DNA of 64,000 bases. Source: Candidatus Levyibacteriota bacterium. GTDB lineage: Bacteria; Patescibacteriota; Microgenomatia; Levybacterales; UBA12049. Each line of letters starts with the position of its first letter. Position 1 is the first letter of the stretch. Shown here piece after piece: positions 5,191 through 63,823 of the stretch. The stretch covers positions 432,236 through 496,235 of the forward strand of contig CP066685.1 of NCBI GenBank assembly GCA_016432345.1, in the 5' to 3' direction. A program made the translations under genes and the position numbers. The notes under the pieces are model-generated. The model made no database searches. It worked only from the letters and a program-made list of their open reading frames with translations, and was not told where the DNA came from.

Positions 5191-5198
5191 AGTTAGAA

Positions 5199-5259: not shown

Positions 5260-5279
5260 AGCATCTTACATAAACTATT

Positions 5280-13386: not shown

Positions 13387-14078
13387 TCTTTCCATACTTT
13401 CCAAGGTGCGTGTTGTTTCCAAAGTTTATTTAATTCCTCCATATCTCTATACGTATCCATTGCATGCCAAAACCCTTCATGTCTATAAAGCGACAACTGT
13501 CTATTCTTTGTTAGTCGTATCAACGTGGGATGCTCCATCTCGCCTTTTCTAAAGTAAGATAAGGCGTCCTTTCTAAAAACCATAAATCCTCCGCTTACCC
13601 ATTCGGAAAGGACTGGTTTCTCAACAAATTTTGTTACCTTATTTCCATCTCGAATTTTCACTAAGCCATAGAGGGAGCGAGGGTGCACTCCTGTTATTGT
13701 TCCTATTGTTTTTTGCCTTTTATGGAATGTAACTAATTCTGTAATGTTAACATCTGATACACCATCACCGTAAGTAAGCATAAATTCGTCCCCATCAATA
13801 TAGTCTTTTACTCGCAATACTCTTTCTCCAGGTAAAGTCTCCAAACCTGTATCAACAAATGTTATCTTAAATCCATCGTCGTTACGAAAAAACTTTCTGA
13901 TATAGTCTCCTTTATAACCCAAAGCGACAATAAAATCGGAAAAACCATAATGATCATAAATTTTCATAATATGCCAAAGAATAGGTTTTCCCCCAATAGT
14001 TATCATTGGCTTAGGAATCCACTCTGTTTTCTCTTTTAACCTATATCCTCTTCCCCCGGATAATATTATTGTTTTCAT
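13383..14078 (-). CDS. rfbF: Glucose-1-phosphate cytidylyltransferase
   Basis: MKTIILSGGRGYRLKEKTEWIPKPMITIGGKPILWHIMKIY is the characteristic RfbF N-terminus. It also has LTYGDGVSDVN, and HEGFWHAMDTYRD near the C-terminus. Confidence 0.85.
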   Translation of the reverse strand: MKTIILSGGRGYRLKEKTEWIPKPMITIGGKPILWHIMKIYDHYGFSDFIVALGYKGDYIRKFFRNDDGFKITFVDTGLETLPGERVLRVKDYIDGDEFMLTYGDGVSDVNITELVTFHKRQKTIGTITGVHPRSLYGLVKIRDGNKVTKFVEKPVLSEWVSGGFMVFRKDALSYFRKGEMEHPTLIRLTKNRQLSLYRHEGFWHAMDTYRDMEELNKLWKQHAPWKVWKE

Positions 14079-14093
14079 TTTTTGATTATACTA

Positions 14094-15203
14094 CTAATTA
14101 TCCATTTCTACTTTTTCAAGTGTACGCATGCTTTTTTTGGCTGCATGCGCCCAACTAAATTTCTGTGACCATTTTATAGCATTTTTACTTAATGTTTCTC
14201 GAAGAGTCCTGTCGTTTAATACTTCACATATTTTATTAATCAATTCTTCTTCGTCTTTTGCTAATATACCTGTTTTCCCATTCTGTATTGATTCTGTTAA
14301 TCCTGAAACATTAAAAGAAACAGCAGGTGTTCCATATAAGTTTGCTTCTATAACAGCCATACCCCAACCTTCACCAATTGAAGGATTAACAACTAGCCAT
14401 GATTTGGATAACAAGGATTTTTTTTCCGCATCGTTTACCGGCCCAAGCAGGGTAATTTTTCTACGCAGTGGACTTTTCATAACCAAATTTGCTATATTGG
14501 ATGCCTCTGTTCCCCAACCAGCAATAATCAAACGGGTTTGAGGCATTTTTTCAATTATTTTAGGAAAAATTTTGACCAGCAAGTCAACCCTTTTATACCT
14601 CTTGATTCGTCCTAAATAGAGAATTGTCGGCGCAGAAAATTTTTTTATAGAGTTTTTTATAGTATTTGATCCGTTAATACCGCAATAAACAATAGAAATA
14701 TTTTTTTTGTTAAAGCCTATACTTATCAACTGTTTTTTTGTTGTTTCCGAAATGACAATAATAGAGAGATGTTTATAGAGGAAAGGGAAAACAAATCTTT
14801 CGACAATAAATCCAAAATAACTTAAAGGAAAGGGGAGTTCATAAAAAAATTGATCGCCGTGTAAATGGTATACATAGCTTACTTTAGGAATTCTACAAAA
14901 TAGGGGTGTAAAAAATGGAATCCCATTTACAACGTCCACTACAACATCGGCTTTTCCTCTAAAACGAGAAATATAATACCATATCGCCCAAAGATAAAGA
15001 TTATACCTACCGCCTTTTCTATAAATTTTTATGCCGTCTATTATTTCAAAAGAGGGAAGATTTTCTTCTATATCCTGTCCACAAAAAAGACTTACTTCAT
15101 GACCCATTTTTACCCAACGGGAGGCCTGTTCAAAAATATAAATCTCACCGCCTCCGGCCCAACTATGTTTGAGATCTCGCCAGTTAAAAATAAGTATTCT
15201 CAT
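14094..15203 (-). CDS. GT4-family glycosyltransferase (first gene of the minus-strand operon)
   Basis: The E-x7-E motif GEGWGMAVIEANLYGTPAV and the N-terminus MRILIFNW. I chose the ATG at 15203. The ORF-track start at 15218 is a TTG inside the predicted -10 element. Confidence 0.8.
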   Translation of the reverse strand: MRILIFNWRDLKHSWAGGGEIYIFEQASRWVKMGHEVSLFCGQDIEENLPSFEIIDGIKIYRKGGRYNLYLWAIWYYISRFRGKADVVVDVVNGIPFFTPLFCRIPKVSYVYHLHGDQFFYELPFPLSYFGFIVERFVFPFLYKHLSIIVISETTKKQLISIGFNKKNISIVYCGINGSNTIKNSIKKFSAPTILYLGRIKRYKRVDLLVKIFPKIIEKMPQTRLIIAGWGTEASNIANLVMKSPLRRKITLLGPVNDAEKKSLLSKSWLVVNPSIGEGWGMAVIEANLYGTPAVSFNVSGLTESIQNGKTGILAKDEEELINKICEVLNDRTLRETLSKNAIKWSQKFSWAHAAKKSMRTLEKVEMDN

Positions 15204-15217
15204 TTTAAGTTCGGTCA

Positions 15218-15246
15218 AGTATACTATAGCTACAATTTCTTATCAA
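15218..15246 (-). promoter_or_regulatory. Sigma70-type promoter TTGATA-N17-TATACT for the nine-gene minus-strand operon (15203 to 6321)
   Basis: Minus strand: -35 at 15246-15241, -10 at 15223-15218, 17-nt spacer. The ATG at 15203 is 14 nt downstream. Confidence 0.55.
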
Positions 15247-15267
15247 CATCGTGTATACTAATAAGGA

Positions 15268-17577
15268 ATGCGGCGTATTAATTTTAGTTTTCTTAGGGAA
15301 CACAAGTTAGCCTTAGTAATCTGTATCATTCTTTTTATATTACCTTTTTTTTGGTTAAAACCAGGAGAAATGGATTTGGGGGGGGATAGCAGTCGATTAT
15401 TTTTCTACGATCCTCTAAATTATCTTAAAAACTCAAATCTTTATTATGTTGCAAGAGATGGAATAGGATCGGTTGAGCCTGAATATAGTTATGATTATGC
15501 CCTTATTCCATATTTAGCAATACTTATATTATTAAAATCCATATTTTCTTCTACTATTCTAATCAATTTATTTAATGGAGTAAAACTTGCCGGTGGATTC
15601 ATAGTAATATATTTTATAGTACGGGAATTTCTTTTAGAGACATACGGTAAGACTAAAAAAGATACACTTAATAATGTATCGGTATTAAGCGGAGTTTTTT
15701 ATATAGTTTCTCAAGGATCAATTAATTTGGTTGTCAGTTGGGAGACAGCTCTCACATCACATAATCAGTTTTTTATATATCCTCTTATTTTTTTCTTGCT
15801 TTTTAAATCTTTAATTACGCATAAATATAGCTATCTTTGGATTGCATTACTGATTAGTTTTATTTTTTCTCCAAATTTTGGAGGACTGGAGTCTATTCCA
15901 CCCTTTTTTGCATTCTGGCCAATAGTAGCAGTATTTTTGTTTCTGTATATAAAGATTTTTGGTAAAAAACCAATTTCATGGAAAATAATAATTATGGCAG
16001 CAGTACTTTTCTTAGGCGTTCATACTTTTCATCTTCTTGCTCAAGCAGTTAGCTTATTTGATAGCGGGAGTTTTACTAATGTTAAAGTTTTTGACAAATA
16101 TTATATGATAGACCTTGGGCTTAATATTTTTGGCGCTGTGCTTTCAAGCGGAATGGCAACCCTAAATTTTCTGCTTCCTTCTCCAAATATATTTCTTAGA
16201 TGGATATCTTTTCTGTCTGCATTAATAATTCTTGTCGGATTTATTTTAAACAAAAAAAAAGAATTTTTATTCATTTCTATTTTCTTTTTTATTACTTTTT
16301 TTTTCTCAACAGCCAATATAACAAATGTTGGAGTAGAATTTTATAAGAGTTTATTCTATCTACCTGGTTTTTCCATGTTTAGAATTTTTTCCAAATGGCT
16401 GTATGTTTTTGTTTTCTTTTACGCTTTATTATTTGGGTTTGCTGCGTATAGTATTAGCGAAAAGTTAAAAGTAAATTATTCAAAGCTTTTTTTTATTTTT
16501 GTTTTTACTTTTTTAATTATATCCGGTATTCCGCTATTTTCTGGAGCTCCAATAAATAAATCTTTAATAGGCGGTACCAATATAAAAAAAACCTTCTTAA
16601 TGGATTCTAAATATGAGCAAGTGCTTGAACATATTCGTACTTTACCGGATGACGGAAAGATATTAGTACTACCATTAGTTGGTTTTAATTATCAATTTTT
16701 CTTTGGTGTTGATTCGGGAGCATATTTAGGGCTTAGTTCGATAAGTCACTTAACAGATAAATATAGTTTTACAGGGGAACGACATTTTGGCGTTGCTGGG
16801 TTTTACGGGCCAAATTTATATAGTTATTTGGTTCAAAAATACGCCAAAGAAAAAAACTATAAAAGATTAAATCAGTTATTTACTCTTATGAATATTCGAT
16901 ATATTTTATATAATGCTGATTCAAGACAATACGAACGAGGATTTTCAGATACTCAATTTTTCTTGCCGGAATCCTTTCCCAAAACGAAAGCTGGATACGA
17001 TGAGTTTATAAGGCACTTTTCTATACAACAAATATATAAAAACGGCAATTATATTTTGTACGAATTTAGTAAATCCAGTTATAACTCTACTATTTTTATC
17101 CCAAAAGGAGTATATGAGAGCAATGATCTCATCTATGATGAGAAGAATTTACATTCAATTTTTATTGATAAAAATACTTGTAATATAAAAGAGTTTAAGG
17201 AAATTTGTAAAGGAGGTTATAACGCTTCAGACAACGATGTAAGTTTTAAAATGATAAATCCCGTCCTTTACGAAGTAACAATTATCAAAAAAAAACCACA
17301 AGACACAATACTTTTAGTTATGCAGCACGCCTTTAATAGAGCCTGGAAATTGATAATCGACAAAAAAAATGTATCGAAAGAGTCACATGTGTTAGTAAAT
17401 GGATATGCAAACGGATGGTTATTGGGTAAGGGTGATATTCCACAGGCAAAAAAATTTACAGTATTTATAAAACTCGATTCCCAAAAATATTTTTGGTATG
17501 GGTGGGTAGTAACAGCTGTTTCTTTAGCTGTTGTAATTGGATTATTAGTAGTTTCCATAGTTAAACAACGGCATTGA
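15268..17577 (+). CDS. Giant-family GT-C-like polytopic membrane protein, short form (paralog 1)
   Basis: 769 aa. The first ~430 aa hold about a dozen hydrophobic segments, followed by a large soluble region and a final TM helix (WVVTAVSLAVVIGLLVV). The loop motif PFFWLKPGEMDLGGDSSRLFFYDP and the blocks HNQFFIYPLIFFLL, IFSPNF, PGFSMFR, LPDDGKILVLP, NIRYILYNAD, INPVLYEV, FNRAWKL and VNGYANGW are shared with 34533, 37320 and 41633. Confidence 0.7.
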   Translation: MRRINFSFLREHKLALVICIILFILPFFWLKPGEMDLGGDSSRLFFYDPLNYLKNSNLYYVARDGIGSVEPEYSYDYALIPYLAILILLKSIFSSTILINLFNGVKLAGGFIVIYFIVREFLLETYGKTKKDTLNNVSVLSGVFYIVSQGSINLVVSWETALTSHNQFFIYPLIFFLLFKSLITHKYSYLWIALLISFIFSPNFGGLESIPPFFAFWPIVAVFLFLYIKIFGKKPISWKIIIMAAVLFLGVHTFHLLAQAVSLFDSGSFTNVKVFDKYYMIDLGLNIFGAVLSSGMATLNFLLPSPNIFLRWISFLSALIILVGFILNKKKEFLFISIFFFITFFFSTANITNVGVEFYKSLFYLPGFSMFRIFSKWLYVFVFFYALLFGFAAYSISEKLKVNYSKLFFIFVFTFLIISGIPLFSGAPINKSLIGGTNIKKTFLMDSKYEQVLEHIRTLPDDGKILVLPLVGFNYQFFFGVDSGAYLGLSSISHLTDKYSFTGERHFGVAGFYGPNLYSYLVQKYAKEKNYKRLNQLFTLMNIRYILYNADSRQYERGFSDTQFFLPESFPKTKAGYDEFIRHFSIQQIYKNGNYILYEFSKSSYNSTIFIPKGVYESNDLIYDEKNLHSIFIDKNTCNIKEFKEICKGGYNASDNDVSFKMINPVLYEVTIIKKKPQDTILLVMQHAFNRAWKLIIDKKNVSKESHVLVNGYANGWLLGKGDIPQAKKFTVFIKLDSQKYFWYGWVVTAVSLAVVIGLLVVSIVKQRH

Positions 17578-17616
17578 CATTTTTTCTCTATTAAGATAAG
17601 GTATTATCATAAATTT

Positions 17617-18219
17617 ATGACTAAAATTAGCACGAAGTATCGTGATAAAGCCCGAAAACGCTTATTGGAAAGTGCTGATGTTAAAAAAAAAGTTGCAGAA
17701 GAATGTTTAGAGTTAATTTTAATCGCCAGTCAAATGATAGTTGATACATTTGCATCCGGCGGAAAGGTAATGATTTGCGGCAATGGTGGCAGCGCAGCTG
17801 ACTCTCAGCATATGGCAGGAGAATTAGTTTGCATGTTAAATAAAGTATTTGAAAGACCAGGTCTTCCCGCGATTGCTTTAAGTACAGATACATCTATTTT
17901 GACAGCGCATGCCAACGATCTTGGTTTTGAAAAAATCTTTAAACGACAAGTCAACGCATTAGGTAAGGCTGGAGATGTATTAATTGGAATCACAACAAGT
18001 GGCAGTTCTCCAAATATTCTTGCCGCAATCAATTCCGCAAGAACTGCTAAAATACGTACAATCATGCTAACTGGGAACAGTAAAAAAACAAAAAAATTAG
18101 CGGATGTTGTATTGTCGGTTCCGAGTAGCAATACCCAATATATTCAAGAATCACATATAGCTATTGAACACATAATATGTGAGATTGTAGAAGATCATCT
18201 TTTTGGTGCAAAAAGGTAA
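17617..18219 (+). CDS. gmhA: Phosphoheptose isomerase (sedoheptulose-7-phosphate isomerase)
   Basis: ICGNGGSAADSQHMAGEL, ITTSGSSPNIL and QESHIAIEH. The 200-aa length is typical of GmhA. Confidence 0.85.
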   Translation: MTKISTKYRDKARKRLLESADVKKKVAEECLELILIASQMIVDTFASGGKVMICGNGGSAADSQHMAGELVCMLNKVFERPGLPAIALSTDTSILTAHANDLGFEKIFKRQVNALGKAGDVLIGITTSGSSPNILAAINSARTAKIRTIMLTGNSKKTKKLADVVLSVPSSNTQYIQESHIAIEHIICEIVEDHLFGAKR

Positions 18220-25298: not shown

Positions 25299-26046
25299 CT
25301 TTTTAATTACTGGTACTTCTAGCGGGCTTGGTAAATATCTTTATGCAAATTTAGGCGGAATTTCCTTAAATAGGGAAAAAATTCAAAAAAATGGCGCAGA
25401 GATAATCATTCATTGTGCTTTTAACTCGGAAAATAATCCTAAGGATTCAGATCAATACTATAACGATAATGTTTTATTAACCAAAAGATTGACCAAAATT
25501 CCCCATACAAAGTTTATATTTGTTTCTTCGGTTGATGTATATCCAAAAAATTCAAATAGACATACAGAGAGTGAAATTATAGACATGCATAATGTAGAGA
25601 GTTTATATGCCAAAACAAAACTTTTATCTGAAGATTTAGTCAAAAAGAATTGCCCTAATTTTTTAATTCTAAGATGCAGCGCTCTGTTAGGAAAAGACTC
25701 CAGAAGAAATAGCTTAATTAAAATCATTGAGGAAAAAAAACCTACTCTAACACTTTCTGGCGACTCCATATCCAATTATATTTTGCACGAAGATGTTTTA
25801 AGTTTTATTAAGGCGGCTTCAGAAAAAGATTTACAAGGAATATATAATCTGGCATCCTCTAAAAATATAACTCTAAAACAAGTTACAGATTTAGTTAAGA
25901 AAAAAGTTACTTTTGGAGATTATGTATATAATGTAGGAAACATAGATAATAGTAAAACAGTTTCTATCTCCAAAGTTTTTAAAAAAACTTCACGAGAGAT
26001 AATTACTGAATTCGTTAGCCATAACACAGTAAACCCAACAAGTTGA
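25282..26046 (+). CDS. Short RmlD-like NAD(P)-dependent reductase
   Basis: FLITGTSSGLGKYL, VSSVDVYP and YAKTK (YxxxK). 254 aa. Confidence 0.55.
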   Translation: MFFVNSFLITGTSSGLGKYLYANLGGISLNREKIQKNGAEIIIHCAFNSENNPKDSDQYYNDNVLLTKRLTKIPHTKFIFVSSVDVYPKNSNRHTESEIIDMHNVESLYAKTKLLSEDLVKKNCPNFLILRCSALLGKDSRRNSLIKIIEEKKPTLTLSGDSISNYILHEDVLSFIKAASEKDLQGIYNLASSKNITLKQVTDLVKKKVTFGDYVYNVGNIDNSKTVSISKVFKKTSREIITEFVSHNTVNPTS

Positions 26047-26071
26047 AATAGCTTTTATCTTATAGTATAAT
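26043..26071 (+). promoter_or_regulatory. Sigma70-type promoter TTGAAA-N17-TATAAT, ATG 6 nt downstream (leaderless configuration)
   Basis: -35 at 26043-26048 (overlaps the upstream TGA stop), -10 at 26066-26071, ATG at 26078. Confidence 0.6.
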
Positions 26072-26077
26072 ATAAGC

Positions 26078-27127
26078 ATGCTAGAACGCTTAGCGCAACT
26101 TGGAAGAGCTCTCCAAGCTGCTGGTAATCTTGATATACGTGTTAACAGAAGAGGTTTTCTTAAAGGTGGATTATCGGTTGTAGGTGTATTTACACTGTCT
26201 GGGTGTGAGCCAGCACCTTCTACATCAGCTCCTTCCCAAGCTACTATAGAAATAGGACAACCTGAAATAGAGTTGCGTGATATCACAAGCAGTTTTAATC
26301 ATGAAAATCTTTCTGATCCAGAACCCAGAAGTAAAGTAGTAGAATTAACTGCCTCAATAACGGAAAAACTCCAGTTAAACAGTTTAACAAAAGAACAAAT
26401 GGTTGCATCTATCGTTTGGGTAGAAGATCCCCTTCCACGAGCGCGTGAGAAAGCGCAAAGAAAAAAAACTTCTATAGAGAGTGAGCTTGCAAGAATGAGA
26501 ACGTGGTCTGCTGAGACGGATAATGGCAAAGTATACGTATACATACATGCTTCTACTCTTCAAAAATCTTACTGGGAGTTGCAACCACAATTACACTGGA
26601 ATCCGCTTAAAGAACTCGTGCACGCGCTTGACCATGAATGGAAGCACCTCGAAGTTAGAGAAAGAACAGATGCACGCATGGATACACTCCTTGATCCAGA
26701 GAATGCTTTTTCTGGTAAAGTTATTACTGGCTTTAGAATGAATGGCACTAATGCATCAGAATTTCCGAAATCCGTATATGCCCAGCTTGATGAAGGAATA
26801 ACAGATTATCTTGCCACACAATCAGTACTATCATATTTTGGAGCAGTGGTGAATTCGGCAGATGTTGCAACAATGGTTGATTATTTCCCAATAATTTTTA
26901 AAGAAGCTGGAATTCTTCCACAGACAATACAACAACTGCATCAAGAATCAAAATTTTATGAATTTTTGATTTTGTTAGCCAAAATTAAGGGAGTAGAAGG
27001 GTCTATCATAACTGAGAGGCAACAAGTTCTGGCTGGACTTGCTGTTGTAAATGCACTTGTTAATAACGATAAGCCAACGATAGAAAAATACATTCAAGCT
27101 ATCCGTGAGAATAAAGCTCATCATTAG
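26078..27127 (+). CDS. Predicted secreted lipoprotein with HEXXH motif (function unknown)
   Basis: The N-terminus NRRGFLKGGLSVVGVFTLSGC is Tat-like RR plus a lipobox Cys. HEWKH is at nt 26633-26647. GC is visibly higher than in the neighbours. It has its own TTGAAA-N17-TATAAT promoter. Confidence 0.5.
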   Translation: MLERLAQLGRALQAAGNLDIRVNRRGFLKGGLSVVGVFTLSGCEPAPSTSAPSQATIEIGQPEIELRDITSSFNHENLSDPEPRSKVVELTASITEKLQLNSLTKEQMVASIVWVEDPLPRAREKAQRKKTSIESELARMRTWSAETDNGKVYVYIHASTLQKSYWELQPQLHWNPLKELVHALDHEWKHLEVRERTDARMDTLLDPENAFSGKVITGFRMNGTNASEFPKSVYAQLDEGITDYLATQSVLSYFGAVVNSADVATMVDYFPIIFKEAGILPQTIQQLHQESKFYEFLILLAKIKGVEGSIITERQQVLAGLAVVNALVNNDKPTIEKYIQAIRENKAHH

Positions 27128-28369: not shown

Positions 28370-29302
28370 CTAAATATTTTTGAATTCCAAACGCCTAATA
28401 AGTTGATAGCCTTTTATAAGTTCTTTTATTCCTTCATCTAGTGTTTTTTTTGCTTCAAATCCAGCAGTTTTGAGCCTTTGGCTTAAGACAATATAGTTTC
28501 TTTTGTCAGGGTCTGAGTTTATTTCTGCAAAATCAATATAAAATTTAGGGAGATGCTGTTTGATTTTTCCTGCTAACTCTTCTTTTGTTAGATTTTCAGA
28601 ATCTAAGCCAAGATTATATGCTTTTCCAGTCATTTTCTTGTGATTTTCAATGGAGAAGATAAAACAATCAATAACATCGCGAATATGAACAAAATTTCTT
28701 TTAAAATTTTTTTCAAAAAGCACAATATATCCATCAGTTAGGGCGGTATATACAAAGTGGTTCACCAGTAAATCTAGTCTTAATCGTGGAGACATGCCAA
28801 AAACCGAAGCAAGCCTAAGGGTAATGGTATTTTTTGATGATAACAACTCTATTTCTGCGTCAGTCTTAGTTTTTCCATAGAGCGTTACTGGTTTAAGCGG
28901 TGTTTCTTCTGTGCAAAAATTTCCGCAGGAGGGGGTACCATATCCATTATTTGTCATAGGAAAAACGACTAATTGATCTTTGCTTCGTAACTTGTTAAGT
29001 AGTTTTATAGAGTCTAAATTTGTCGTTGTAGCAAGATAGGGATCACTGTCGCAAGCAGAAGTTCCGACAATTGCTGCAAGGGGAACTACAACATCAGCAT
29101 TTTTAAGAAGTTTACTCATTAAGCTTTTGTCTCGGACATCTCCAAAAACAAAATCAAAATTGGGATTGTTACATAAATGGAATAGGCTTTTTTGTCGATA
29201 TATGAGGTTATCTATTGCTGTAACGTTATAGCCTTTATCCAAGAGAATCTCGCAGAGAACTGATCCTAAATAACCTGCGCCCCCCGTGACCAAAATATTC
29301 AT
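28370..29302 (-). CDS. NAD-dependent nucleotide-sugar epimerase/dehydratase (extended SDR)
   Basis: MNILVTGGAGYLGSVL and YGKTK (YxxxK). It is the operon head, with a TTGAAT-N17-TACAAT promoter 6 nt upstream of the ATG. Confidence 0.75.
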   Translation of the reverse strand: MNILVTGGAGYLGSVLCEILLDKGYNVTAIDNLIYRQKSLFHLCNNPNFDFVFGDVRDKSLMSKLLKNADVVVPLAAIVGTSACDSDPYLATTTNLDSIKLLNKLRSKDQLVVFPMTNNGYGTPSCGNFCTEETPLKPVTLYGKTKTDAEIELLSSKNTITLRLASVFGMSPRLRLDLLVNHFVYTALTDGYIVLFEKNFKRNFVHIRDVIDCFIFSIENHKKMTGKAYNLGLDSENLTKEELAGKIKQHLPKFYIDFAEINSDPDKRNYIVLSQRLKTAGFEAKKTLDEGIKELIKGYQLIRRLEFKNI

Positions 29303-29308
29303 TGGTCA

Positions 29309-29337
29309 ATTGTAGCTCAATTATTAAATAAATTCAA
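29309..29337 (-). promoter_or_regulatory. Sigma70-type promoter TTGAAT-N17-TACAAT, ATG 6 nt downstream (leaderless configuration)
   Basis: Minus strand: -35 at 29337-29332, -10 at 29314-29309, ATG at 29302. Confidence 0.6.
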
Positions 29338-29341
29338 TAAC

Positions 29342-29370
29342 TTGAAACTTGATACAATTTTTGATATAAT
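29342..29370 (+). promoter_or_regulatory. Sigma70-type promoter TTGAAA-N17-(TGa)TATAAT, ATG 7 nt downstream (leaderless configuration)
   Basis: -35 at 29342-29347, extended -10 TG at 29362-29363, -10 at 29365-29370, ATG at 29378. The -35 lies 4 nt from the divergent -35. Confidence 0.65.
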
Positions 29371-29377
29371 CTAAGTT

Positions 29378-30634
29378 ATGGAAGGGGCTATCACTCCCAA
29401 AGCTTTATTGTATACACGATTCGCTCGTGAAGAGCGCAAACTTCCTCCGCTTATTGAAGATGCGCGTCAAAACCCGCTTGTAAAAGCAGAGACCGCAGAT
29501 GGAACAGTATATGTAAAAGATGTTGCGATCCTCACAGCACGTCAACACATGTTGGTAATTCCAGACCAGCCAAGCGGAGTGATTATGGGAAGTGTACAGG
29601 AAGTACCTTTGCCTTTGCTTGGAGATACATTTCAGGCTGCCGGTGATATCGCAAAATATTATGAATCTCAACCTGGAATAGAACAGGTGGATATGATGAT
29701 TAATTTTTCTACTGATCCTCTCAAAAGAATTCAAACCCAGCCAAATTTGCATGTGCATATACTTGGATATGGTCCAGATGATATACAAAAACCTACAAAT
29801 AGAAGAGAAATGAGGGCAAATCCAGAGCTGCGTCCTCAAGAAAGTGAGCCACTCAACAGTGTAATTTATGACTTGTTAGATCAGCAAGTTTTTCCTTCTG
29901 TGGCAACAGACCCCGCTTTTAAGCAGTTATTTGAGCGGACTACTGATGAACATGGAGCAATAACGTATAGGCTTATTTATGGAGATGCGACATTTTCGGA
30001 TTCTGACTTTCCCCGTGTAATGCAAGAAATTCATAAAAGAAGTCAAGAAGTATATAATCAACTCGCATCTGTATATTTTGAAATGGATAAAGACGGAAGA
30101 TTTGTAGAAGAAGTTGATGGACGTAATAAACTTTTATCACAAGAAAAACGGATAAATAATGTAGCTATATATATTTCAGAGCATCCAAGTCTTTCATCAA
30201 CAAGTCAAAGATGGCTTCAGTTTTTGGCAAATCATGCAACAGATTTAGAAACTGTTATAGTCAGCAAAGAACAAGCAAAAGGAAGTGAGTTATCGCCGCA
30301 AGAGAGAAAGCACGTAATTAATAGATTCGCTGCCATAAAAGACTTATCATATGGCTTAACATTTTCAGGAATAAAAATTGATGATAAGTATGATTGGCGC
30401 ATGGGATATGATCCTATTGTTTTTTCGACTAGAGGTACCTTAGCGGCTTCCAGAGGCATACCAAAAGCGGGCATAATGGATTCAACTATGATATATGATC
30501 CACAGACGTTAGAAATTGTTAAAGCCTCTGAAAGAAAGTTAGGGGAATATTTAGTAGAAAAAGGCAAGCAAGACAGTAGTCTTCCTTATCAACCAGGTCC
30601 CCAACTTTATTCAGAATCAATTAATCCAGGATAG
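29378..30634 (+). CDS. HIT-like N-terminal domain protein with an unassigned ~270-aa C-terminal region
   Basis: RQHMLVIPDQP plus MMINFSTDPLKRIQTQPNLHVHILGY resembles the HIT fold with an N-x-H-x-H-x-x triad variant (HVH at nt 29750-29758). GC is higher than in flanking genes. Confidence 0.45.
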   Translation: MEGAITPKALLYTRFAREERKLPPLIEDARQNPLVKAETADGTVYVKDVAILTARQHMLVIPDQPSGVIMGSVQEVPLPLLGDTFQAAGDIAKYYESQPGIEQVDMMINFSTDPLKRIQTQPNLHVHILGYGPDDIQKPTNRREMRANPELRPQESEPLNSVIYDLLDQQVFPSVATDPAFKQLFERTTDEHGAITYRLIYGDATFSDSDFPRVMQEIHKRSQEVYNQLASVYFEMDKDGRFVEEVDGRNKLLSQEKRINNVAIYISEHPSLSSTSQRWLQFLANHATDLETVIVSKEQAKGSELSPQERKHVINRFAAIKDLSYGLTFSGIKIDDKYDWRMGYDPIVFSTRGTLAASRGIPKAGIMDSTMIYDPQTLEIVKASERKLGEYLVEKGKQDSSLPYQPGPQLYSESINPG

Positions 30635-33518: not shown

Positions 33519-34453
33519 GTTATTTTTTTAGCGTATACGCACATTATATCAAAAGGATTTATATAAAAACTTAAATCTTTAGGCAAAACAAATTGCGCTG
33601 CGTTTAATATTGTGCCTGCAACTTTATTATATAATCCAATTCGATCTGTAAAAAGACTCAAATTGACATATTTACCAACATGCTTACTTGATACAAGAGA
33701 AAGTCCAGCCTTTTCAAGAAGTTGTGCAACTGTTTTTTTTGAAAAATAGGTAAGATGTTCATCAGATAATTTGTAGCCTATCCATTTATGTTTTGTTAGT
33801 TTTGCTGGTATTGATCCGACATTTGGTGTTGAAAATACAAGCAAACCATTTTTTTTTAGAGCTCGTTTCGATGCTTGAATAACTTCAATAGGATTTGTTA
33901 AATGTTCAATAACATCCCACATGGTAATCAAATCATATGTATTGGCGGGTAAGTCAATTTGCATTACATTTCCAACATGGATTTTAAAACCAAAAGTTTT
34001 TTTTGCATAAGAAGCAGCAAACTTCGAAATTTCTACACCTTCAACTTTCCATCCCCGCATTTTTGCGCTATGCATAAAAAATCCTGTTGCGCATCCGATA
34101 TCAAGCAGTTTTCCAGGAGACAGAAAAGTTTCAATTGCTTTAAGACGTTTATCAAATGTCTTTATAATATTCTTCCGATCTTGTAGATAACTGCTATATC
34201 CCAATAATGAGGAATGATCATTTTTAAAATACTCTTCTGTGTAAAGCTCTTTTAAGTATTTATTTTTTAACCGTGGATTTGTATATATAAGTTCACATTT
34301 TATACATGTTACAATTCGGGGATAATACTCTGGATATTTTTTGGTATGTGTTTTACTATTACATAAGGGGCAGGAGATATTTTCAAGATACTTTGGTGGG
34401 AAAATGTTTCTATGAGAACTTTTTTGAATATGCTTTTTTAGTTTTATTTCCAT
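33515..34453 (-). CDS. Class I SAM-dependent methyltransferase with N-terminal zinc ribbon
   Basis: CPLCNS...CIKCELIYTNP, LLDIGCATGFF and DLITMWDVIEHL. It is the operon head. Confidence 0.75.
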   Translation of the reverse strand: MEIKLKKHIQKSSHRNIFPPKYLENISCPLCNSKTHTKKYPEYYPRIVTCIKCELIYTNPRLKNKYLKELYTEEYFKNDHSSLLGYSSYLQDRKNIIKTFDKRLKAIETFLSPGKLLDIGCATGFFMHSAKMRGWKVEGVEISKFAASYAKKTFGFKIHVGNVMQIDLPANTYDLITMWDVIEHLTNPIEVIQASKRALKKNGLLVFSTPNVGSIPAKLTKHKWIGYKLSDEHLTYFSKKTVAQLLEKAGLSLVSSKHVGKYVNLSLFTDRIGLYNKVAGTILNAAQFVLPKDLSFYINPFDIMCVYAKKIT

Positions 34454-34475
34454 AATAAGATTATTGTAAAACTAG

Positions 34476-34504: not shown

Positions 34505-34532
34505 GTAACAATAAAGATATCATCTTTAATGA

Positions 34533-36953
34533 ATGAAAAAACTCTTTAGATTTTCAAAACCAAAAATTTTCGTTTCTCTTATTTGTATCGTATTATTTAT
34601 TCTTCCTTTTTTTTGGCTTCATACTAACGAATTAGAACTGGGTGGAGATAGTAGTAGGCTTTACATGTATGACCCCGATTCATTTATGCAATCGGATAGT
34701 TTATACAGCATTGAACCCGGCGGTATTGGAGCCTTGAGATCAGATCAAGCCATGCTGCCATTTTTATTTCTATTAAAGTTTTTTTACTTTATTTTCCATT
34801 CATCCTACATTGTCATTTGTCTTTTAAATTCTCTTAAGTTGGTGGGAGCATTTTTATTTATGTATTTAATCGTTGTTGAAATTCTTAAAAAACATGCGCA
34901 GGAAAACAAAATGCTTCTGGTGGAGATTGCAGGAATACTAGCAGGGCTTTTTTATACATTTTCCCCAAGCGGTGGTGAATCCATGCAATTTTCCCTGATT
35001 GTACATAATCAAGTATTTTTAAATCCGATGGTTTTTTATCTGCTCCTGCGATTCTTGATTTCGCAAAAAAATAAATATTTATGGTTTGCCATCTTAACAA
35101 CACTTATTTTTTCACCTAATTTTACACTGGTTGTTCCCTCTGTTTACGCTTTTTTTCCATTGGCGTTTATATTCCTTGGATTATATGTAACTTTCTGCCT
35201 TGGTAAACCATTGCCTTTGAGAAAAATATTTGGGGGTATTATTTTATTTCTGGGCCTACATGCTTTTCATCTAATACCTACTATTATGCTTATTTTTGAC
35301 CCGGGTAATATCTTAAATACGCGAATATTTGATAGAAGTTCAATTCAGAATGTAGGGGTAGATTATTTCAGCTCGGTAGTGCTTCATTCAATGGTTACGA
35401 AGAGCTTTTTCTATAGCTACTCAATTCCTCAAACACAATGGACTGTATTTATCGCACCATTAAGTATTATTTTAGGATTCCTGATAAGCCGGGCGCGCGA
35501 AAAAACTTTTACGCTAATCGCCTTATTTTTTTTCATAACAACCTTTTTACAATCGGCAAATATTACATATCTTGGCAATGCTATGTATAAAATGCTGTTT
35601 TATATTCCCGGTTTTTCTATGTTTCGAAACTTTCCAGGGTGGTTTATGTACGTGCAAACTTTTTTTTATGCATTGCTTTTAGGATATGCATTTTTTTTAA
35701 TCTTTTCAAAGTTAAAAGAAAGAATTGTTTATATCTCTTCAATTTTAATCATAGGAGTGTTTGTTTTTAACAGCTGGAAGTTTATAAGCGGACAAATTCT
35801 TAGGCAGCCCCATAGAGGAACAAACAATGTGAGCACGATTATACAAATGGATCCTGCTTATGAAAAGATACTGTCATATTTACGAAACCTGCCTGATGAC
35901 GGTAAAATTTTTGACTTTCCTCTTACAGAATTTGGCTATCAAGTAGTTCCAGGTTTAAACAGAGGCGCGTATATTGGTCCTTCTCCTATTTCTTTTCTCA
36001 CTAATCGGAGTGACTTCGCGGGGAACCCAATTCTTGACCCATTTTCAGCTACACTTCATAATCTAATTAAAGAAAAGAATATAGATGGCATCAAAAGATT
36101 ATTTGGATTGTTAAATGTAAAATATATTTTTTACAATTCAGATCCCAGAGCTTACGAAGAGTTTTTTCCCGATGTTCCCAATACTGTGCTTCTTAAACTG
36201 TTGCCAGATTCTGCTTCTCTTGCAAATTTAGTTGATAAAATCATAGGAGAAAAAGTAGTAAATTTTGGAACATATAACCTTTATTACGCAGATAAAAATT
36301 ATTACTTGCCTCATTTTTTTGTCCTAACTTCAGTTATTCCATACGATGGCAAAAAAATTGATCTCATTGGACAAAATACATCATTTTTTGTTGATACCAA
36401 ACTTACCGATCCAAGAATTGGCTATATTGATTCACAACTGTGTACACAAGTGTTATCTTCTTGTAAAGAGGGAGAGATAATATACGAGAGCGATATCCCC
36501 ACAATTACGTATCAGAAAATCAATCCGACAAAGTATAAAGTTATAGTTTCCAATGCTAATGCCCCTTTTTTTCTTATATTCTCTGATAAATTTCATACGA
36601 GTTGGAAGGCCTATATGACAAATCAAGAAGCTGAAAAGCTAAAAATACAAGGTAGATATTTTGACGGTAGAATACAAGAATCTTATCACGAAAATATCTT
36701 TTTAAATAATAAGACATTCGAGACACTGAATATGAAAAGTTTGCCAGAAGCGCAACATTTTACGGCCAATGGATACGCCAATGCCTGGTATATTACTCCA
36801 GGAGATTTCGATGGAGAAAGTAATTATGAAATTATTGTTGAGATGACGCAACAAAGAGCAGCTTACATAGGACTGATTATCTCTTTTATAAGTATTATAA
36901 TTTTTATGATCTATGGAGTAAAAATTTTGAAAAACAGCGCATTGCACCAATAG
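34533..36953 (+). CDS. Giant-family GT-C-like polytopic membrane protein, short form (paralog 2)
   Basis: 806 aa with PFFWLHTNELELGGDSSRLYMYDP, HNQVFLNPMVFYLLL, IFSPNF, PGFSMFRNF, LPDDGKIFDFPLTEFGYQ, NVKYIFYNSDP, INPTKYKV, FHTSWKA and ANGYANAW, plus a terminal TM helix. Confidence 0.7.
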   Translation: MKKLFRFSKPKIFVSLICIVLFILPFFWLHTNELELGGDSSRLYMYDPDSFMQSDSLYSIEPGGIGALRSDQAMLPFLFLLKFFYFIFHSSYIVICLLNSLKLVGAFLFMYLIVVEILKKHAQENKMLLVEIAGILAGLFYTFSPSGGESMQFSLIVHNQVFLNPMVFYLLLRFLISQKNKYLWFAILTTLIFSPNFTLVVPSVYAFFPLAFIFLGLYVTFCLGKPLPLRKIFGGIILFLGLHAFHLIPTIMLIFDPGNILNTRIFDRSSIQNVGVDYFSSVVLHSMVTKSFFYSYSIPQTQWTVFIAPLSIILGFLISRAREKTFTLIALFFFITTFLQSANITYLGNAMYKMLFYIPGFSMFRNFPGWFMYVQTFFYALLLGYAFFLIFSKLKERIVYISSILIIGVFVFNSWKFISGQILRQPHRGTNNVSTIIQMDPAYEKILSYLRNLPDDGKIFDFPLTEFGYQVVPGLNRGAYIGPSPISFLTNRSDFAGNPILDPFSATLHNLIKEKNIDGIKRLFGLLNVKYIFYNSDPRAYEEFFPDVPNTVLLKLLPDSASLANLVDKIIGEKVVNFGTYNLYYADKNYYLPHFFVLTSVIPYDGKKIDLIGQNTSFFVDTKLTDPRIGYIDSQLCTQVLSSCKEGEIIYESDIPTITYQKINPTKYKVIVSNANAPFFLIFSDKFHTSWKAYMTNQEAEKLKIQGRYFDGRIQESYHENIFLNNKTFETLNMKSLPEAQHFTANGYANAWYITPGDFDGESNYEIIVEMTQQRAAYIGLIISFISIIIFMIYGVKILKNSALHQ

Positions 36954-36970
36954 AGTGTATTTACTATAAT
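36942..36970 (+). promoter_or_regulatory. Internal sigma70-type promoter TTGCAC-N17-TATAAT, ATG of small protein A 8 nt downstream
   Basis: -35 at 36942-36947, -10 at 36965-36970. The stop codon of paralog 2 lies in the spacer, and the ATG is at 36979. Confidence 0.55.
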
Positions 36971-36978
36971 TATCTTTT

Positions 36979-37332
36979 ATGTCTGGCGCAATACAAAAAC
37001 AAGGTTTAAGCAGAAACGTTATTAGATTTTTAGCCCTTTCCCCAATTATTTTGCTGATCCTCGGGGATGCTCTTCTTTTCCAACAAAATTCAGATTGGCG
37101 GACATTTCCGATTTTAATCTTTTATATATTCCTTATAATTCGTTATAAAATTGCTGCGAATACAACGTTTCTTATTTGTTTGGCGCTTTTCTTATTTATG
37201 TATATTCATTATATTTTTTCCGATCCTAAAGTATTTGCGACTCGATATCCTCTTGCTCCTTTTGGAGAAAAAATGGCTGAGTGGCTTTATCTTTTTTTGG
37301 TAATTGGCGTTATACAAAAATGGCAAGAATAA
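36979..37332 (+). CDS. Small four-helix membrane protein, family member A (unknown function)
   Basis: 117 aa with four hydrophobic segments. Its C-terminal tail EKMAEWLYLFLVIGVIQKWQE is homologous to the tails of 40987 and 41301. The last 13 nt overlap the ATG of the next giant gene. A TTGCAC-N17-TATAAT promoter ends 8 nt upstream. Confidence 0.7.
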   Translation: MSGAIQKQGLSRNVIRFLALSPIILLILGDALLFQQNSDWRTFPILIFYIFLIIRYKIAANTTFLICLALFLFMYIHYIFSDPKVFATRYPLAPFGEKMAEWLYLFLVIGVIQKWQE

Positions 37333-49284: not shown

Positions 49285-49320
49285 TTTTTTAATAACATCA
49301 ACTGTGATATATTATAAGCA

Positions 49321-50967
49321 ATGCATCCACCAAAAGATTTCAGTTTTAAAAAATTCCTCATAATGAATCGCTGGTATTTACTGCTTCTTTTAGGACTTGT
49401 TTTTATATCTTATGTAAACGCTCTCGGAAATAGTTTTGTTTCAGATGATCGCGGGCTTGTTATTAACATGCCTATTTGGGATACGAGTACTATTTTGTCA
49501 AATCCATATCCTCCTATGAGACAATTTTTGTATCTTGTAGCCTATAAAATAGGCGGATTAAATCCTGCTTTGTTTCGCTCATTCAATATTATTTTCCATG
49601 CGGGAACGGTAATGCTTATATATACAATTTTGTGCGTCATGCAAAAACCCAAAGTTGGGATTCTTGCGGCAGCACTTTTTGCTGTTCATCCAATTCTTGT
49701 TGAATCCATAACGTGGATAACAGCAGGTGCGCATGCACAGTATAGTTTTTTCTTTCTTCTCGCCCTTTTATTTTATATCCTCCCACGAAAAAACACGCTA
49801 AATTATGCAGTTTCTATCGGGTTTTACATACTGGCACTTCTATCATCTGAGAAAGCGGTTGTTTTAGCTTTGGCATTTCCTCTTTTTGAATTTTCTTTTG
49901 GGAGTCTTATAAGAAGTTGGAAAAGAATAATTCCGTACTTTATTTTAAGCGGGTTTTGGGTGTTATTGTATTTACGATTATTTACGCTGCGGATAGAATT
50001 CTTTGAGGGACCACAATTAATAGATTCAACATTTGTCAATCCACTTTTGCAGATTCCAATTGCTATTACGTCTTATTTGCAATTAATTTTTTGGCCAAAC
50101 AATTTAACAATATATCATACTGAATTATCGTTTACTCTTTTTGAATATATTGTAAGAGTTATTTTTTTCATTATTTTTTTGGGAGTTGCAGCATACTGTT
50201 TTAGACGCAATCGCTTAATATTTTTTTGGCTGACATTTTTTTTAGTGACGTTACTGCCGACTATCAATCCATTTGTTCACGCATGGATTGTGGCAGAAAG
50301 ATATATATATCTTGGGACAATAGGCATTGTAGTAACTGTGGCAGTGATTTTTGCAAGACTAGGTGAAAATTTAAAATATAAAAAGACAATATATATTGTT
50401 TTTTCTTTTATTATATTTTCTCTTGCGATTAGGACTATCGTACGTAATATAGATTGGCAAAATGAAGACAATTTATGGCTTGCCACGAAAGAGACATCGC
50501 CTTCAAGCGCTCAAAATCATAATAATCTAGGAGATTATTATGGCCGCCATGGTGATTTGGAAAATTCTGTTAAAGAATTTAAAAGGGCTATTGAACTTAA
50601 GCCTAATTATGCTGATGCTTATCATAATTTAGGAAATGCATACCGTGATATGGGCAGATTTGAAGATGCAATTAAACAATATGAAAAAGCACTTTCTTTT
50701 AATCCTGGTCTCTGGCAGTCATATCATAATATTGCTGCGATTTACTATAGTCAGAAAAGTTTTGATAGGGCAATTGATTATCTTCAAAAGGGTATTACTA
50801 TAAATCCTCAAAATCCTAATCTTTTTGTCGCGCTTTCTATAGTCTATTTTAAGCAAGGAGAAAAAAGTAAGGCAACTGAAGCAATAGCAACCGCGCTGAA
50901 AATAGATCCAAACAATAATTTTACAAAAGAGATATTCTTACAGATGCAGAATAATACCCTTCAATAA
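49321..50967 (+). CDS. GT-C-like membrane protein with C-terminal TPR repeats (TMTC/PMT-like architecture)
   Basis: The first-loop acidic motif NSFVSDDRGLV and about 10 hydrophobic segments. The C-terminal ~170 aa are canonical TPR units (NLGDYYGRHGDLENSVKEFKRAIELKPNYADAYHNLGNAYRDMGRFEDAIKQYEKALSFNP...). Confidence 0.65.
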   Translation: MHPPKDFSFKKFLIMNRWYLLLLLGLVFISYVNALGNSFVSDDRGLVINMPIWDTSTILSNPYPPMRQFLYLVAYKIGGLNPALFRSFNIIFHAGTVMLIYTILCVMQKPKVGILAAALFAVHPILVESITWITAGAHAQYSFFFLLALLFYILPRKNTLNYAVSIGFYILALLSSEKAVVLALAFPLFEFSFGSLIRSWKRIIPYFILSGFWVLLYLRLFTLRIEFFEGPQLIDSTFVNPLLQIPIAITSYLQLIFWPNNLTIYHTELSFTLFEYIVRVIFFIIFLGVAAYCFRRNRLIFFWLTFFLVTLLPTINPFVHAWIVAERYIYLGTIGIVVTVAVIFARLGENLKYKKTIYIVFSFIIFSLAIRTIVRNIDWQNEDNLWLATKETSPSSAQNHNNLGDYYGRHGDLENSVKEFKRAIELKPNYADAYHNLGNAYRDMGRFEDAIKQYEKALSFNPGLWQSYHNIAAIYYSQKSFDRAIDYLQKGITINPQNPNLFVALSIVYFKQGEKSKATEAIATALKIDPNNNFTKEIFLQMQNNTLQ

Positions 50968-52194: not shown

Positions 52195-52221
52195 TTGGCA
52201 AATACTATGTAATATACGTGT

Positions 52222-52227
52222 TATAAT
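52222..52227 (+). promoter_or_regulatory. Possible -10 element TATAAT, ATG 6 nt downstream; no convincing -35
   Basis: TATAAT at 52222-52227, ATG at 52234. The nearest TTGGCA (52195-52200) is 21 nt away, which is too far. Confidence 0.3.
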
Positions 52228-52233
52228 GGCGAT

Positions 52234-63722: not shown

Positions 63723-63823
63723 CGTATATAATGTATCAATTATGTAAGCGAAAGTCAAGCAGTAATATATAAAAATTTTTATATGAATAAAGATCAAGAC
63801 ATACAATCACGGAGGAATTTGTT

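What the first reader, a model, noticed from the sequence alone, without database searches (positions are those of the whole stretch)
29309..29380. Recurrent promoter architecture placing ATG 6-8 nt after a consensus -10: leaderless operon heads, including a symmetric divergent pair
Five start codons sit 6-8 nt downstream of a TATAAT-like hexamer. Four of these have a good -35 at exactly 17 nt:

| ATG | Strand | -35 / spacer / -10 | Gap to ATG |
|---|---|---|---|
| 26078 | + | TTGAAA-17-TATAAT | 6 nt |
| 29378 | + | TTGAAA-17-TGaTATAAT | 7 nt |
| 29302 | - | TTGAAT-17-TACAAT | 6 nt |
| 36979 | + | TTGCAC-17-TATAAT | 8 nt |
| 5190 | - | TTGCGC-17-TATACT | 8 nt |

A TATAAT-6-ATG arrangement also occurs at 52234.

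Transcription starting ~7 nt after the -10 would give mRNAs that begin at or next to the ATG, and none of these starts has a Shine-Dalgarno. By contrast the gene at 63824 has a clear GGAGGA. At 29309-29370 and 5199-5259 two such promoters are arranged back-to-back, with their -35 hexamers 3-4 nt apart. The same scheme recurs at every well-defined operon head listed above, so it looks systematic, not coincidental.
Basis: seen in the sequence. Interest (0 to 1): 0.6.

Follow-up and report, generated by a model that had tools for sequence, protein, structure and literature searches.

The report
Leaderless operon heads in a Levybacteria genome
In this small-genome groundwater bacterium (Candidatus Levyibacteriota, candidate phyla radiation) and its relatives, the promoter -10 box of many operons lies 6-9 bases before the start codon. 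The messages should therefore begin at or next to the AUG, a known but here unreported way of starting translation without a ribosome-binding site.

Summary
All six quoted sites are in the sequence as described. A good -10 hexamer lies 5-9 nt before the start codon at 12 of 17 operon heads in the window. The figure is 3 of 30 for internal genes, 1.5 of 17 in shuffles, and 5.5% for all ATGs.

The layout is conserved in orthologues of 26078, 29378, 29302, 36979 and 52234 while flanking DNA diverges. For the 52234 family, 61 distinct upstream regions put the -10 at 6/7/8/9 nt in 16/9/6/8 cases. Of 39 such hexamers, 31 carry the extended TG.

Homologues of the 29302 epimerase in non-CPR phyla have a GGAG Shine-Dalgarno instead.

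The window comes from a Candidatus Levyibacteriota genome (34% GC, code 11). This is the known "group C" leaderless architecture in a lineage where I found no report of it.

- The 5199-5259 pair is not symmetric; ATG 5280 is 20 nt from its TATAAT.
- Six heads are short-leadered or leadered: 5280, 15203, 17617, 30698, 51026, 63824.
- Absence of Shine-Dalgarno is not specific to heads, because SD use is weak genome-wide.

No transcript 5' ends were available, so "leaderless" remains inferred.

The parts
29342..29380 (+). Promoter TTGAAA(29342-47)-17-TGaTATAAT(29362-70), a 7-nt gap, then ATG 29378 of a 418-aa hypothetical protein (HYV37_02470).
   Evidence: 11 of 12 consensus matches, TG present. 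An in-frame TAA lies two codons upstream. Orthologues L003, L005, L006 and L007 keep TGaTATAAT/TATCAT 6-7 nt before the ATG while the upstream DNA diverges.
29300..29337 (-). Promoter TTGAAT(rc 29332-37)-17-TACAAT(rc 29309-14), a 6-nt gap, then ATG 29302 of an NAD-dependent epimerase. It lies back-to-back with the previous part, with the -35 hexamers 4 nt apart and a 75-nt intergenic region.
   Evidence: L008 and L009 keep TTGAAT/TTGACT-18-TAAAAT-6-ATG. Homologues in non-CPR phyla have a GGAG SD instead.
26043..26080 (+). Promoter TTGAAA-17-TATAAT(26066-71), a 6-nt gap, then ATG 26078 (349-aa protein with a Tat/lipobox-like N-terminus).
   Evidence: 11 of 12. L027-L029 keep TTGTAA-17-TATAAT-6-ATG. 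The start equals the annotated protein QQG40409.1.
36942..36981 (+). TTGCAC-17-TATAAT(36965-70), an 8-nt gap, then ATG 36979 (117-aa membrane protein).
   Evidence: L030 and L031 keep TATAAT with a 7-nt gap. L009 has TGaTATAAA with a 5-nt gap.
5188..5227 (-). TTGCGC(rc 5222-27)-17-TGgTATACT(rc 5199-5207), an 8-nt gap, then ATG 5190 (SAM methyltransferase).
   Evidence: The annotated start is 5190, not TTG 5241. The spacing is not conserved: the L024 orthologue has the same TATACT 23 nt from the same MYKNRQEF start.
52219..52236 (+). Extended -10 TGtTATAAT(52219-27), a 6-nt gap, then ATG 52234 (296-aa conserved hypothetical). There is no -35.
   Evidence: Across 61 distinct orthologous upstream regions the -10 lies at gap 6/7/8/9 in 16/9/6/8 cases, and 31 of 39 such hexamers carry the TG.
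14076..14090 (-). TATAAT(rc 14085-90), a 6-nt gap, then ATG 14078 (glucose-1-phosphate cytidylyltransferase). It sits in a 15-nt intergenic space and looks like an internal operon promoter.
   Evidence: It is kept in L024-L026, with changes only inside the 6-nt gap.
49305..49323 (+). TGaTATATT(49305-13), a 7-nt gap, then ATG 49321 (TPR protein).
   Evidence: The start equals the annotated QQG40427.1.
15254..15270 (+). TATACT(15254-59), an 8-nt gap, then ATG 15268 (769-aa membrane protein).
   Evidence: The homologous upstream block in L024 has TATACT with a 10-nt gap.
34451..34468 (-). TACAAT(rc 34463-68), a 9-nt gap, then ATG 34453.
   Evidence: The L009 orthologue has TGaTAAAAT with a 7-nt gap.
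34518..34535 (+). Weak TATCAT(34518-23), a 9-nt gap, then ATG 34533. The assignment is ambiguous.
   Evidence: The L009 orthologue has TATCTT at 12 nt or TACAAT at 21 nt.
5254..5282 (+). Counter-example: TATAAT(5254-59) lies 20 nt before ATG 5280 (GT2 glycosyltransferase). This gives a short leader without SD.
   Evidence: In L024 the gap is 48 nt.
15201..15223 (-). Counter-example: TATACT(rc 15218-23) lies 14 nt before ATG 15203 (GT4 glycosyltransferase, MRILIFN...).
   Evidence: The L024 orthologue has TATACT at 12 nt.
17574..17619 (+). Counter-example: TTGACA(17574-79)-17-TAAGGT(17597-602) lies 14 nt before ATG 17617.
   Evidence: The block is conserved in L008, whereas the nearer TATTAT/TATCAT hexamers are not.
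63727..63826 (+). Counter-example: TATAAT(63727-32), a leader of about 85 nt, then GGAGGA(63811-16) 7 nt before ATG 63824. This shows that SD-led initiation also exists here.
   Evidence: -9.5 kcal/mol.

Best explanation
These are sigma-70-type promoters placed so that transcription begins at, or within 0-3 nt of, the A of the start codon. The -10 box is often an extended TGnTAnAAT, with a variable and often weak -35.

**How it would work.** RNA polymerase normally starts 7 nt after the -10 hexamer, with a range of 6-10. A gap of 6-9 nt therefore puts the ATG at the start site. The resulting mRNA has no 5' leader and no Shine-Dalgarno. The ribosome would have to engage the 5'-terminal AUG directly, as in known leaderless mRNAs. 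Downstream genes of each operon are packed with 0-4-nt gaps or overlaps, and probably rely on translational coupling, A-rich upstream sequence or an occasional weak SD.

**What is shown.**
- The motifs exist and are positionally enriched.
- They are restricted to first genes.
- The -10-to-ATG spacing is conserved across the lineage.
- The start codons are correct.

**What is inferred.**
- The transcription start position.
- The mode of ribosome recruitment.

The feature is lineage-wide in Levybacteria-like CPR bacteria, but it is not universal within a genome. Roughly one third to two thirds of operon heads show it. The rest carry 5-20-nt leaders without SD or, rarely, long leaders with SD.
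For: **Window statistics.** 12 of 17 heads against 3 of 30 internal genes; shuffle mean 1.5 of 17. The positional peak is confined to gaps of 5-9 nt.

**Promoter ranking.** The two best consensus promoters in 25-40 kb (11 of 12 matches) are exactly those of 26078 and 29378.

**Start codons.**
- Nine heads equal the GenBank-annotated proteins.
- The ATG is the first start codon of the ORF at 26078, 29378, 29302, 36979 and 52234.
- 29302 opens the canonical MNILVTGGAGYLG Rossmann N-terminus.

**Footprinting in orthologues.**
- 29378.
- 29302.
- 26078.
- 36979.
- 34453.
- 52234 family. Gap 6/7/8/9 = 16/9/6/8 of 61 regions, 31 of 39 hexamers with TG, and variable protein N-termini.

**Independent survey** of 71 related contigs (692 kb), using longest-ORF starts only:
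- 35% of 160 divergent heads and 30% of 120 spaced heads meet the criterion, against 11% of 212 internal genes (p = 2e-8 and 2e-5).
- Per-position frequency peaks at gaps 6-9.

**Controls.**
- Non-CPR control loci: 1/24, 2/68, 0/48.
- The same epimerase in Acidobacteria, Chloroflexi and Geobacter carries a GGAG SD 6-9 nt upstream.

**Fit to the published class.** The geometry matches the described 'group C' pattern, a Pribnow box 6-8 nt from first-gene starts (PMC6028130).
Against: - No 5'-end data exist for this organism, so the start site is only predicted from E. coli-type rules.
- Several heads are not of this type (5280, 15203, 17617, 30698, 51026, 63824).
- Some orthologues shift the spacing out of the leaderless range. 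The 5190 orthologue in L024 has a 23-nt gap, and 34533 is ambiguous in L009.
- Gaps of 8-9 nt could equally give 1-3-nt leaders.
- The GenBank starts come from a pipeline that itself models leaderless genes, so agreement with annotation is not fully independent. Logan gene calls agree for 29378, 26078 and 5190.
- In the wider survey the ORF calling was crude, and the non-CPR control loci are more GC-rich.
Confidence: 0.75

Rival explanations
1. The TATAAT-like hexamers are not promoters but an AT-rich, SD-independent ribosome-binding signal on leadered mRNAs. This would resemble the 'group B' motif of Bacteroidetes or S1-dependent initiation. Transcription would start further upstream.
For: SD use is weak throughout: 7 of 31 internal starts in the window, and 13.8% against a 7% background in related contigs. 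Upstream regions of all gene classes are A/T-rich, with T at -1 in more than 50%.
Against: - A translation signal should also precede internal genes. The motif is 3-7 times rarer there.
- The conserved TG at the extended -10 position (31 of 39) and the -35 hexamers at exactly 17 nt are polymerase features, not ribosome features.
- In 67-79-nt divergent spacers there is little room for other promoters.
Confidence: 0.1
2. The promoters are real, but transcription starts a few nucleotides before the ATG or at several positions. The messages would then have very short leaders (about 2-8 nt) rather than being strictly leaderless, and initiation would tolerate any short SD-less leader.
For: - Gaps range from 5 to 14 nt among heads.
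- Gaps shift by 1-3 nt between orthologues: 36979 has 8, 7 and 5; 34453 has 9 and 7; 15268 has 8 and 10; 15203 has 14 and 12.
- There is a secondary peak at gaps 11-12 in the survey.
Against: The mode is at gaps 6-7, where the A of the ATG is the canonical +1. In the 52234 family the counts for gaps 6/7/8 fall 16/9/6, then 8 at gap 9, with none at gap 5. That roughly follows the known start-site preference. Part of the gap-12 signal comes from overlapping TATGATATCAT hexamers that are counted twice.
Confidence: 0.12
3. Coincidence in an AT-rich genome, or misplaced start codons.
For: At 34% GC the window holds as many promoter-like matches as its shuffles do (61 against 59.5).
Against: Shuffles, internal-gene controls and positional controls all reject chance. 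The spacing is conserved across dozens of orthologues. The ORFs cannot extend upstream, and the N-termini align with homologues.
Confidence: 0.03

Closest known systems
GeneMarkS-2 'group C' genomes: Actinobacteria such as Mycobacterium tuberculosis, and Deinococcus-Thermus such as Deinococcus deserti
   Same: - The Pribnow box lies 6-8 nt before the start codon of first genes in operons.
- About 25-60% of operons are affected.
- Other genes are initiated differently.
(PMC6028130; PMC3898074 and PMC4633059 listed.)
   Different: - Those lineages are mostly high-GC. [quoted passage not shown] This lineage is 28-44% GC.
- The -10 here is a full TATAAT-like hexamer with a frequent extended TG, rather than the minimal TANNNT of mycobacteria.
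- The remaining genes here make little use of SD, whereas group C genomes use SD for them.
Low-GC group C Mycoplasma genomes (genetic code 4)
   Same: They are low-GC, reduced genomes in which 30-60% of transcripts are predicted to be leaderless.
   Different: They belong to a different phylum and genetic code. Here TGA is a stop: with TGA read as a stop, ORFs tile the window almost without gaps.
Classical single leaderless genes of E. coli and its phages and transposons (lambda cI from PRM, Tn1721 tetR)
   Same: The transcript starts at the A of the AUG, and the 5'-terminal AUG is recognised directly (PMC10491246 and PMC9031893, listed).
   Different: Those are isolated exceptions in SD-dominated genomes. 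Here the layout is the commonest one for operon heads.
Bacteroidetes-type 'group B' non-SD genomes
   Same: A low-SD genome with A/T-rich sequence before start codons.
   Different: The group B motif precedes first and internal genes alike, so it cannot be a promoter. Here the motif is specific to operon heads and has promoter features.

Membership tests
Leaderless first-gene-in-operon architecture (GeneMarkS-2 group C) | A -10 (Pribnow) motif localised about 6-8 nt upstream of the start codon of first genes in operons. | tested here: met
   12 of 17 heads in the window. Peak at gaps 6-9 in 280 heads of 71 related contigs. 52234 family.
Leaderless first-gene-in-operon architecture (GeneMarkS-2 group C) | The motif is absent or much rarer before internal operon genes. 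| tested here: met
   3 of 30 in the window and 11% of 212 in relatives, against 30-35% of heads.
Leaderless first-gene-in-operon architecture (GeneMarkS-2 group C) | Remaining genes carry a Shine-Dalgarno RBS. | tested here: inconclusive
   There is only about 2-fold SD enrichment at internal genes: 7 of 31, and 13.8% against 7% background. Clear SDs exist at 54762, 53672 and 63824. The 16S 3' end was not present in any sequence held.
Leaderless mRNA (experimental definition) | The mapped transcript 5' end coincides with the start codon (5' UTR of 0 to about 5 nt). | not testable with these tools
   No transcriptome data are accessible. The start is inferred only from the -10 position.
Leaderless mRNA (experimental definition) | An AUG (rarely GUG) start codon at the 5' end. 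| tested here: met
   All 12 window heads start with ATG. In relatives, 82 of 92 positive heads use ATG, 9 use GTG and 1 uses TTG.
Sigma-70 extended -10 promoters | TG one base upstream of the -10 hexamer, compensating for a weak or absent -35. | tested here: met
   4 of 12 window heads. 31 of 39 hexamers in the 52234 family. Present in 29378 orthologues that lack a -35.
Group B (Bacteroidetes-type) non-SD RBS | The same upstream motif occurs before both first and internal genes. | tested here: not met
   The motif is enriched 3-7-fold at heads over internal genes.

The most novel reading that the evidence does not exclude
Leaderless initiation from extended -10 promoters is the default way of expressing operon heads throughout Levybacteria, and perhaps wider Microgenomates/CPR. 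This is a low-GC, code-11 lineage with reduced ribosomes (no uL30, often no bL9, short bS1) that makes almost no use of Shine-Dalgarno pairing. CPR would then be a third major bacterial clade of leaderless users beside Actinobacteria and Deinococcus-Thermus. Leaderless initiation could also be linked to ribosome reduction.
Probability: 0.5. Interest if true: 0.5.

Novelty: new member of a known kind. Interest (0 to 1): 0.4.

Why it matters
**Gene calling.** Gene-start prediction in CPR metagenome bins depends on knowing which initiation signals to model. If operon heads are leaderless and SD is weak, SD-based callers will misplace starts.

**Biology.** The result would add a deep-branching, uncultivated, low-GC lineage to the bacteria that rely on leaderless mRNAs. 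It also gives a concrete, testable link between the reduced CPR ribosome and an SD-independent, arguably ancestral, initiation mode.

**Practical use.** The compact 67-79-nt divergent promoter modules and the TGnTAnAAT consensus give usable promoter definitions for organisms that have no genetics.

**Limits.** The mechanism itself is well known, and the case here rests on sequence inference alone.

Tried and rejected
- **16S anti-SD:** I looked for the 16S rRNA 3' end in the window and in all 111 loci held. None was present, so anti-SD usage could not be read directly.
- **Rfam:** the gathering-threshold scan of the window gave no hit.
- **Literature:** searches combining 'leaderless' or 'Shine-Dalgarno' with CPR, Patescibacteria or Saccharibacteria found no report of leaderless genes in CPR. 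The TM7x transcriptome paper (PMID 35975994) is not held. The GeneMarkS-2 supplement that lists genome groups is not held either.
- **'Symmetric pair' as a fixed module:** rejected. Divergent spacers in which both sides score positive range from 23 to 113 nt. The palindrome between the -35 hexamers follows trivially from two TTGAA boxes on opposite strands.
- **TTG 5241 as the start of the methyltransferase:** rejected. It is not annotated, and the orthologue starts at the same MYKNRQEF.
- **TATTAT/TATCAT near 17617 as the functional -10:** rejected, because L008 conserves TTGACA-17-TAAGGT instead.
- **P0005:** its contig carried no retrievable DNA.

Full report
**What is there**

At 29303-29377 two promoters sit back-to-back in a 75-nt spacer.
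- On the + strand: TTGAAA (29342-47), 17 nt, TGaTATAAT (29362-70), 7 nt, ATG 29378.
- On the - strand: TTGAAT (rc 29332-37), 17 nt, TACAAT (rc 29309-14), 6 nt, ATG 29302.

These two + strand promoters, at 26078 and 29378, are the two best consensus matches (11 of 12) in the 15 kb scanned. The total number of promoter-like matches there is no higher than in shuffles (61 against 59.5).

**Where it comes from**

The 418-aa product of 29378 is identical to HYV37_02470 of a Candidatus Levyibacteriota MAG, on a 762,565-bp contig. That places it in the Microgenomates group of Patescibacteria/CPR. The window is 34% GC. It is densely packed with polysaccharide-synthesis genes and has no Rfam hit.

**Is it more than chance?**

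I listed the upstream 70 nt of all 57 ORFs. I classed 9 starts as divergent heads, 8 as same-strand heads with an intergenic gap, and 30 as internal genes. The criterion was a -10 with at least 5 of 6 matches to TATAAT, including A2 and T6, lying 5-9 nt before the start.

| Class | Meets criterion |
|---|---|
| Divergent heads | 7 of 9 |
| Other heads | 5 of 8 |
| Internal genes | 3 of 30 |

- Heads against internal genes: Fisher p = 3.5e-5.
- Shuffled upstream regions: mean 1.5 of 17, maximum 7 in 5000 shuffles.
- All ATGs in the window: 5.5%.
- Any other 5-nt gap bin: 1-4 heads.

- 14078 (TATAAT-6)
- 49321 (TGaTATATT-7)
- 15268 (TATACT-8)
- 34453 (TACAAT-9)
- 34533 (TATCAT-9, weak)

**Are the start codons right?**

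- Nine head proteins match GenBank-annotated proteins residue for residue. The longer TTG 5241 version of the methyltransferase does not.
- At 26078, 29378, 29302, 36979 and 52234 the ATG is the first start codon after the upstream stop. These genes therefore cannot begin further upstream.
- 29302 opens the canonical MNILVTGGAGYLG N-terminus shared with homologues in other phyla.

**Comparative evidence**

- **29378:** orthologues at 88, 83, 76 and 40% identity keep TGaTATAAT, TATAAT or TGaTATCAT 6-7 nt before the ATG. Everything further upstream, including the neighbouring gene, differs.
- **29302:** two relatives (L008, L009) keep TTGAAT/TTGACT-18-TAAAAT-6-ATG. The same epimerase in Acidobacteria, Chloroflexi and Geobacteraceae instead carries AAGGAG or GGAGG 6-9 nt upstream.
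- **26078:** L027-L029 keep TTGTAA-17-TATAAT-6-ATG.
- **36979:** L030 and L031 keep TATAAT with a 7-nt gap, and L009 has TGaTATAAA with a 5-nt gap.
- **52234:** this family is large. In 61 distinct orthologous upstream regions from metagenome contigs, at 40-60% protein identity, the -10 lies at gap 6/7/8/9 in 16/9/6/8 cases. Other gaps hold 0-3, except 12, which holds 9 and is partly double-counted. Of 39 such hexamers, 31 carry the extended TG. The protein N-termini vary in sequence and length. The counts for gaps 6/7/8 fall in the order 7 > 8 > 9 nt after the -10, which is the E. coli polymerase preference as I recall it (from memory, not checked here).

**Is it systematic?**

I applied a deliberately unbiased pipeline to 71 non-redundant related contigs (692 kb, 28-44% GC). 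It used ORFs of at least 90 aa and the longest-ORF start only.

| Class | n | With -10 at gap 5-9 |
|---|---|---|
| Divergent heads | 160 | 35% |
| Spaced same-strand heads | 120 | 30% |
| Internal genes | 212 | 11% |

The differences from internal genes give p = 2e-8 and 2e-5, and the per-position frequency peaks at gaps 6-9. The same pipeline on non-CPR control loci gives 1/24, 2/68 and 0/48, although those loci are more GC-rich.

1. The pair at 5199-5259 has the stated back-to-back geometry, with -35 boxes 3 nt apart. However, the + strand TATAAT is 20 nt from ATG 5280, and 48 nt in L024. Only one arm is of the leaderless type.
2. The spacing at 5190 is not conserved. L024 has the same TATACT 23 nt from the same start.
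3. Other heads are short-leadered or leadered:
   - 15203: TATACT-14, and 12 in L024.
   - 17617: TTGACA-17-TAAGGT-14, conserved in L008.
   - 30698 and 51026.
   - 63824: TATAAT, a leader of about 85 nt, then GGAGGA.
4. Lack of SD does not single out the heads.
   - Internal starts reaching -4.5 kcal/mol: 7 of 31, against 13.5% of random positions.
   - Internal genes of related contigs with a core SD: 13.8%, against a 7% background and about 5% of heads.
5. The divergent pair is not a fixed module. Spacers with both sides positive range from 23 to 113 nt.

**Mechanism**

The simplest account is that these are sigma-70-type promoters, often of the extended -10 kind, placed so that the A of the ATG is the transcription start. 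That yields leaderless mRNAs. Later genes in each operon would be translated by coupling, since most abut or overlap their predecessor.

- **Shown:** the motifs, their positional and class specificity, their conservation, and the start codons.
- **Inferred:** the start site, and direct recognition of the 5'-terminal AUG by the ribosome.

**Relation to what is known**

This is the architecture that GeneMarkS-2 calls group C: a Pribnow box 6-8 nt from first-gene starts in 25-50% of operons. It is frequent in Actinobacteria and Deinococcus-Thermus (PMC6028130).

Among code-11 genomes, group C was reported to be almost entirely high-GC, with low-GC examples in code-4 Mycoplasma (bioRxiv 10.1101/2022.07.25.500264).

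Work on CPR ribosomes reports three relevant points: loss of uL30 and often bL9, a short bS1, and loss of the anti-SD only in some Parcubacteria (PMC9297842).

I found no paper linking leaderless genes to CPR in six searches. That is absence in the searchable library only, not proof of novelty.

**Verdict**

The feature is real, statistically solid and lineage-wide, and its likely mechanism is already well understood. I class it as a new member of a known kind. It is of moderate interest, mainly for gene-start annotation and for understanding translation in CPR bacteria.

Noticed in passing
window 63727-63826: The TATAAT at 63727-32 is followed 9 nt later by a minimal ATG-TAA 'start-stop' (63742-47). 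About 63 nt further on come GGAGGA and ATG 63824. A terminator-like hairpin (CCCC-aga-GGGG) lies just upstream at about 63688-63702. This could be chance or a small regulatory element in the only long leader of the window.
   Followed up: partly
window 26078-26230; L027 1060-1210: The 26078 protein has a twin-arginine motif (RRGFLKGG) followed by a lipobox (LSGC), suggesting a Tat-exported lipoprotein. In three assemblies of an 83% orthologue, a 1-nt deletion separates the conserved leaderless ATG from the RR motif, so gene callers start that gene at a downstream GTG. This is either a frameshift, an assembly error or a pseudogene.
   Followed up: partly
L008 (CAZRWL010000019.1): The contig is titled 'uncultured Gammaproteobacteria'. 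It is nevertheless 91% identical in the epimerase, syntenic with window 17.4-31.6 kb, and 37% GC. The bin is probably mislabelled or contaminated.
   Followed up: partly
L009 9966-10001 against window 29303-31346: The related Levyibacteriota genome lacks the two genes at 29378-31333. Its epimerase then follows the preceding gene by 28 nt but still keeps its own TTGACT-18-TAAAAT-6-ATG promoter.
   Followed up: partly
window 34533-45367 and 15268-17577: There are repeated paralogous modules: a small membrane protein plus a membrane protein of about 1240 aa, at 36979-40994 and 41301-45367. The related large proteins at 34533 and 15268 have no Pfam match, and the others were not scanned. All cross-match in tblastx.
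   Followed up: no
71 related contigs (L032-L111): T occupies position -1 before the start codon in 51-57% of heads and 54% of internal genes, well above its level of about 25-45% at the other upstream positions.
   Followed up: no
L068 8759-8786, L103 8801-8825, L052 1200-1227 and others: Divergent gene pairs lie only 23-64 nt apart, with -10-like hexamers for both strands overlapping in a TATATA-type palindrome. These may be start-codon miscalls or genuinely overlapping divergent promoters.
   Followed up: no
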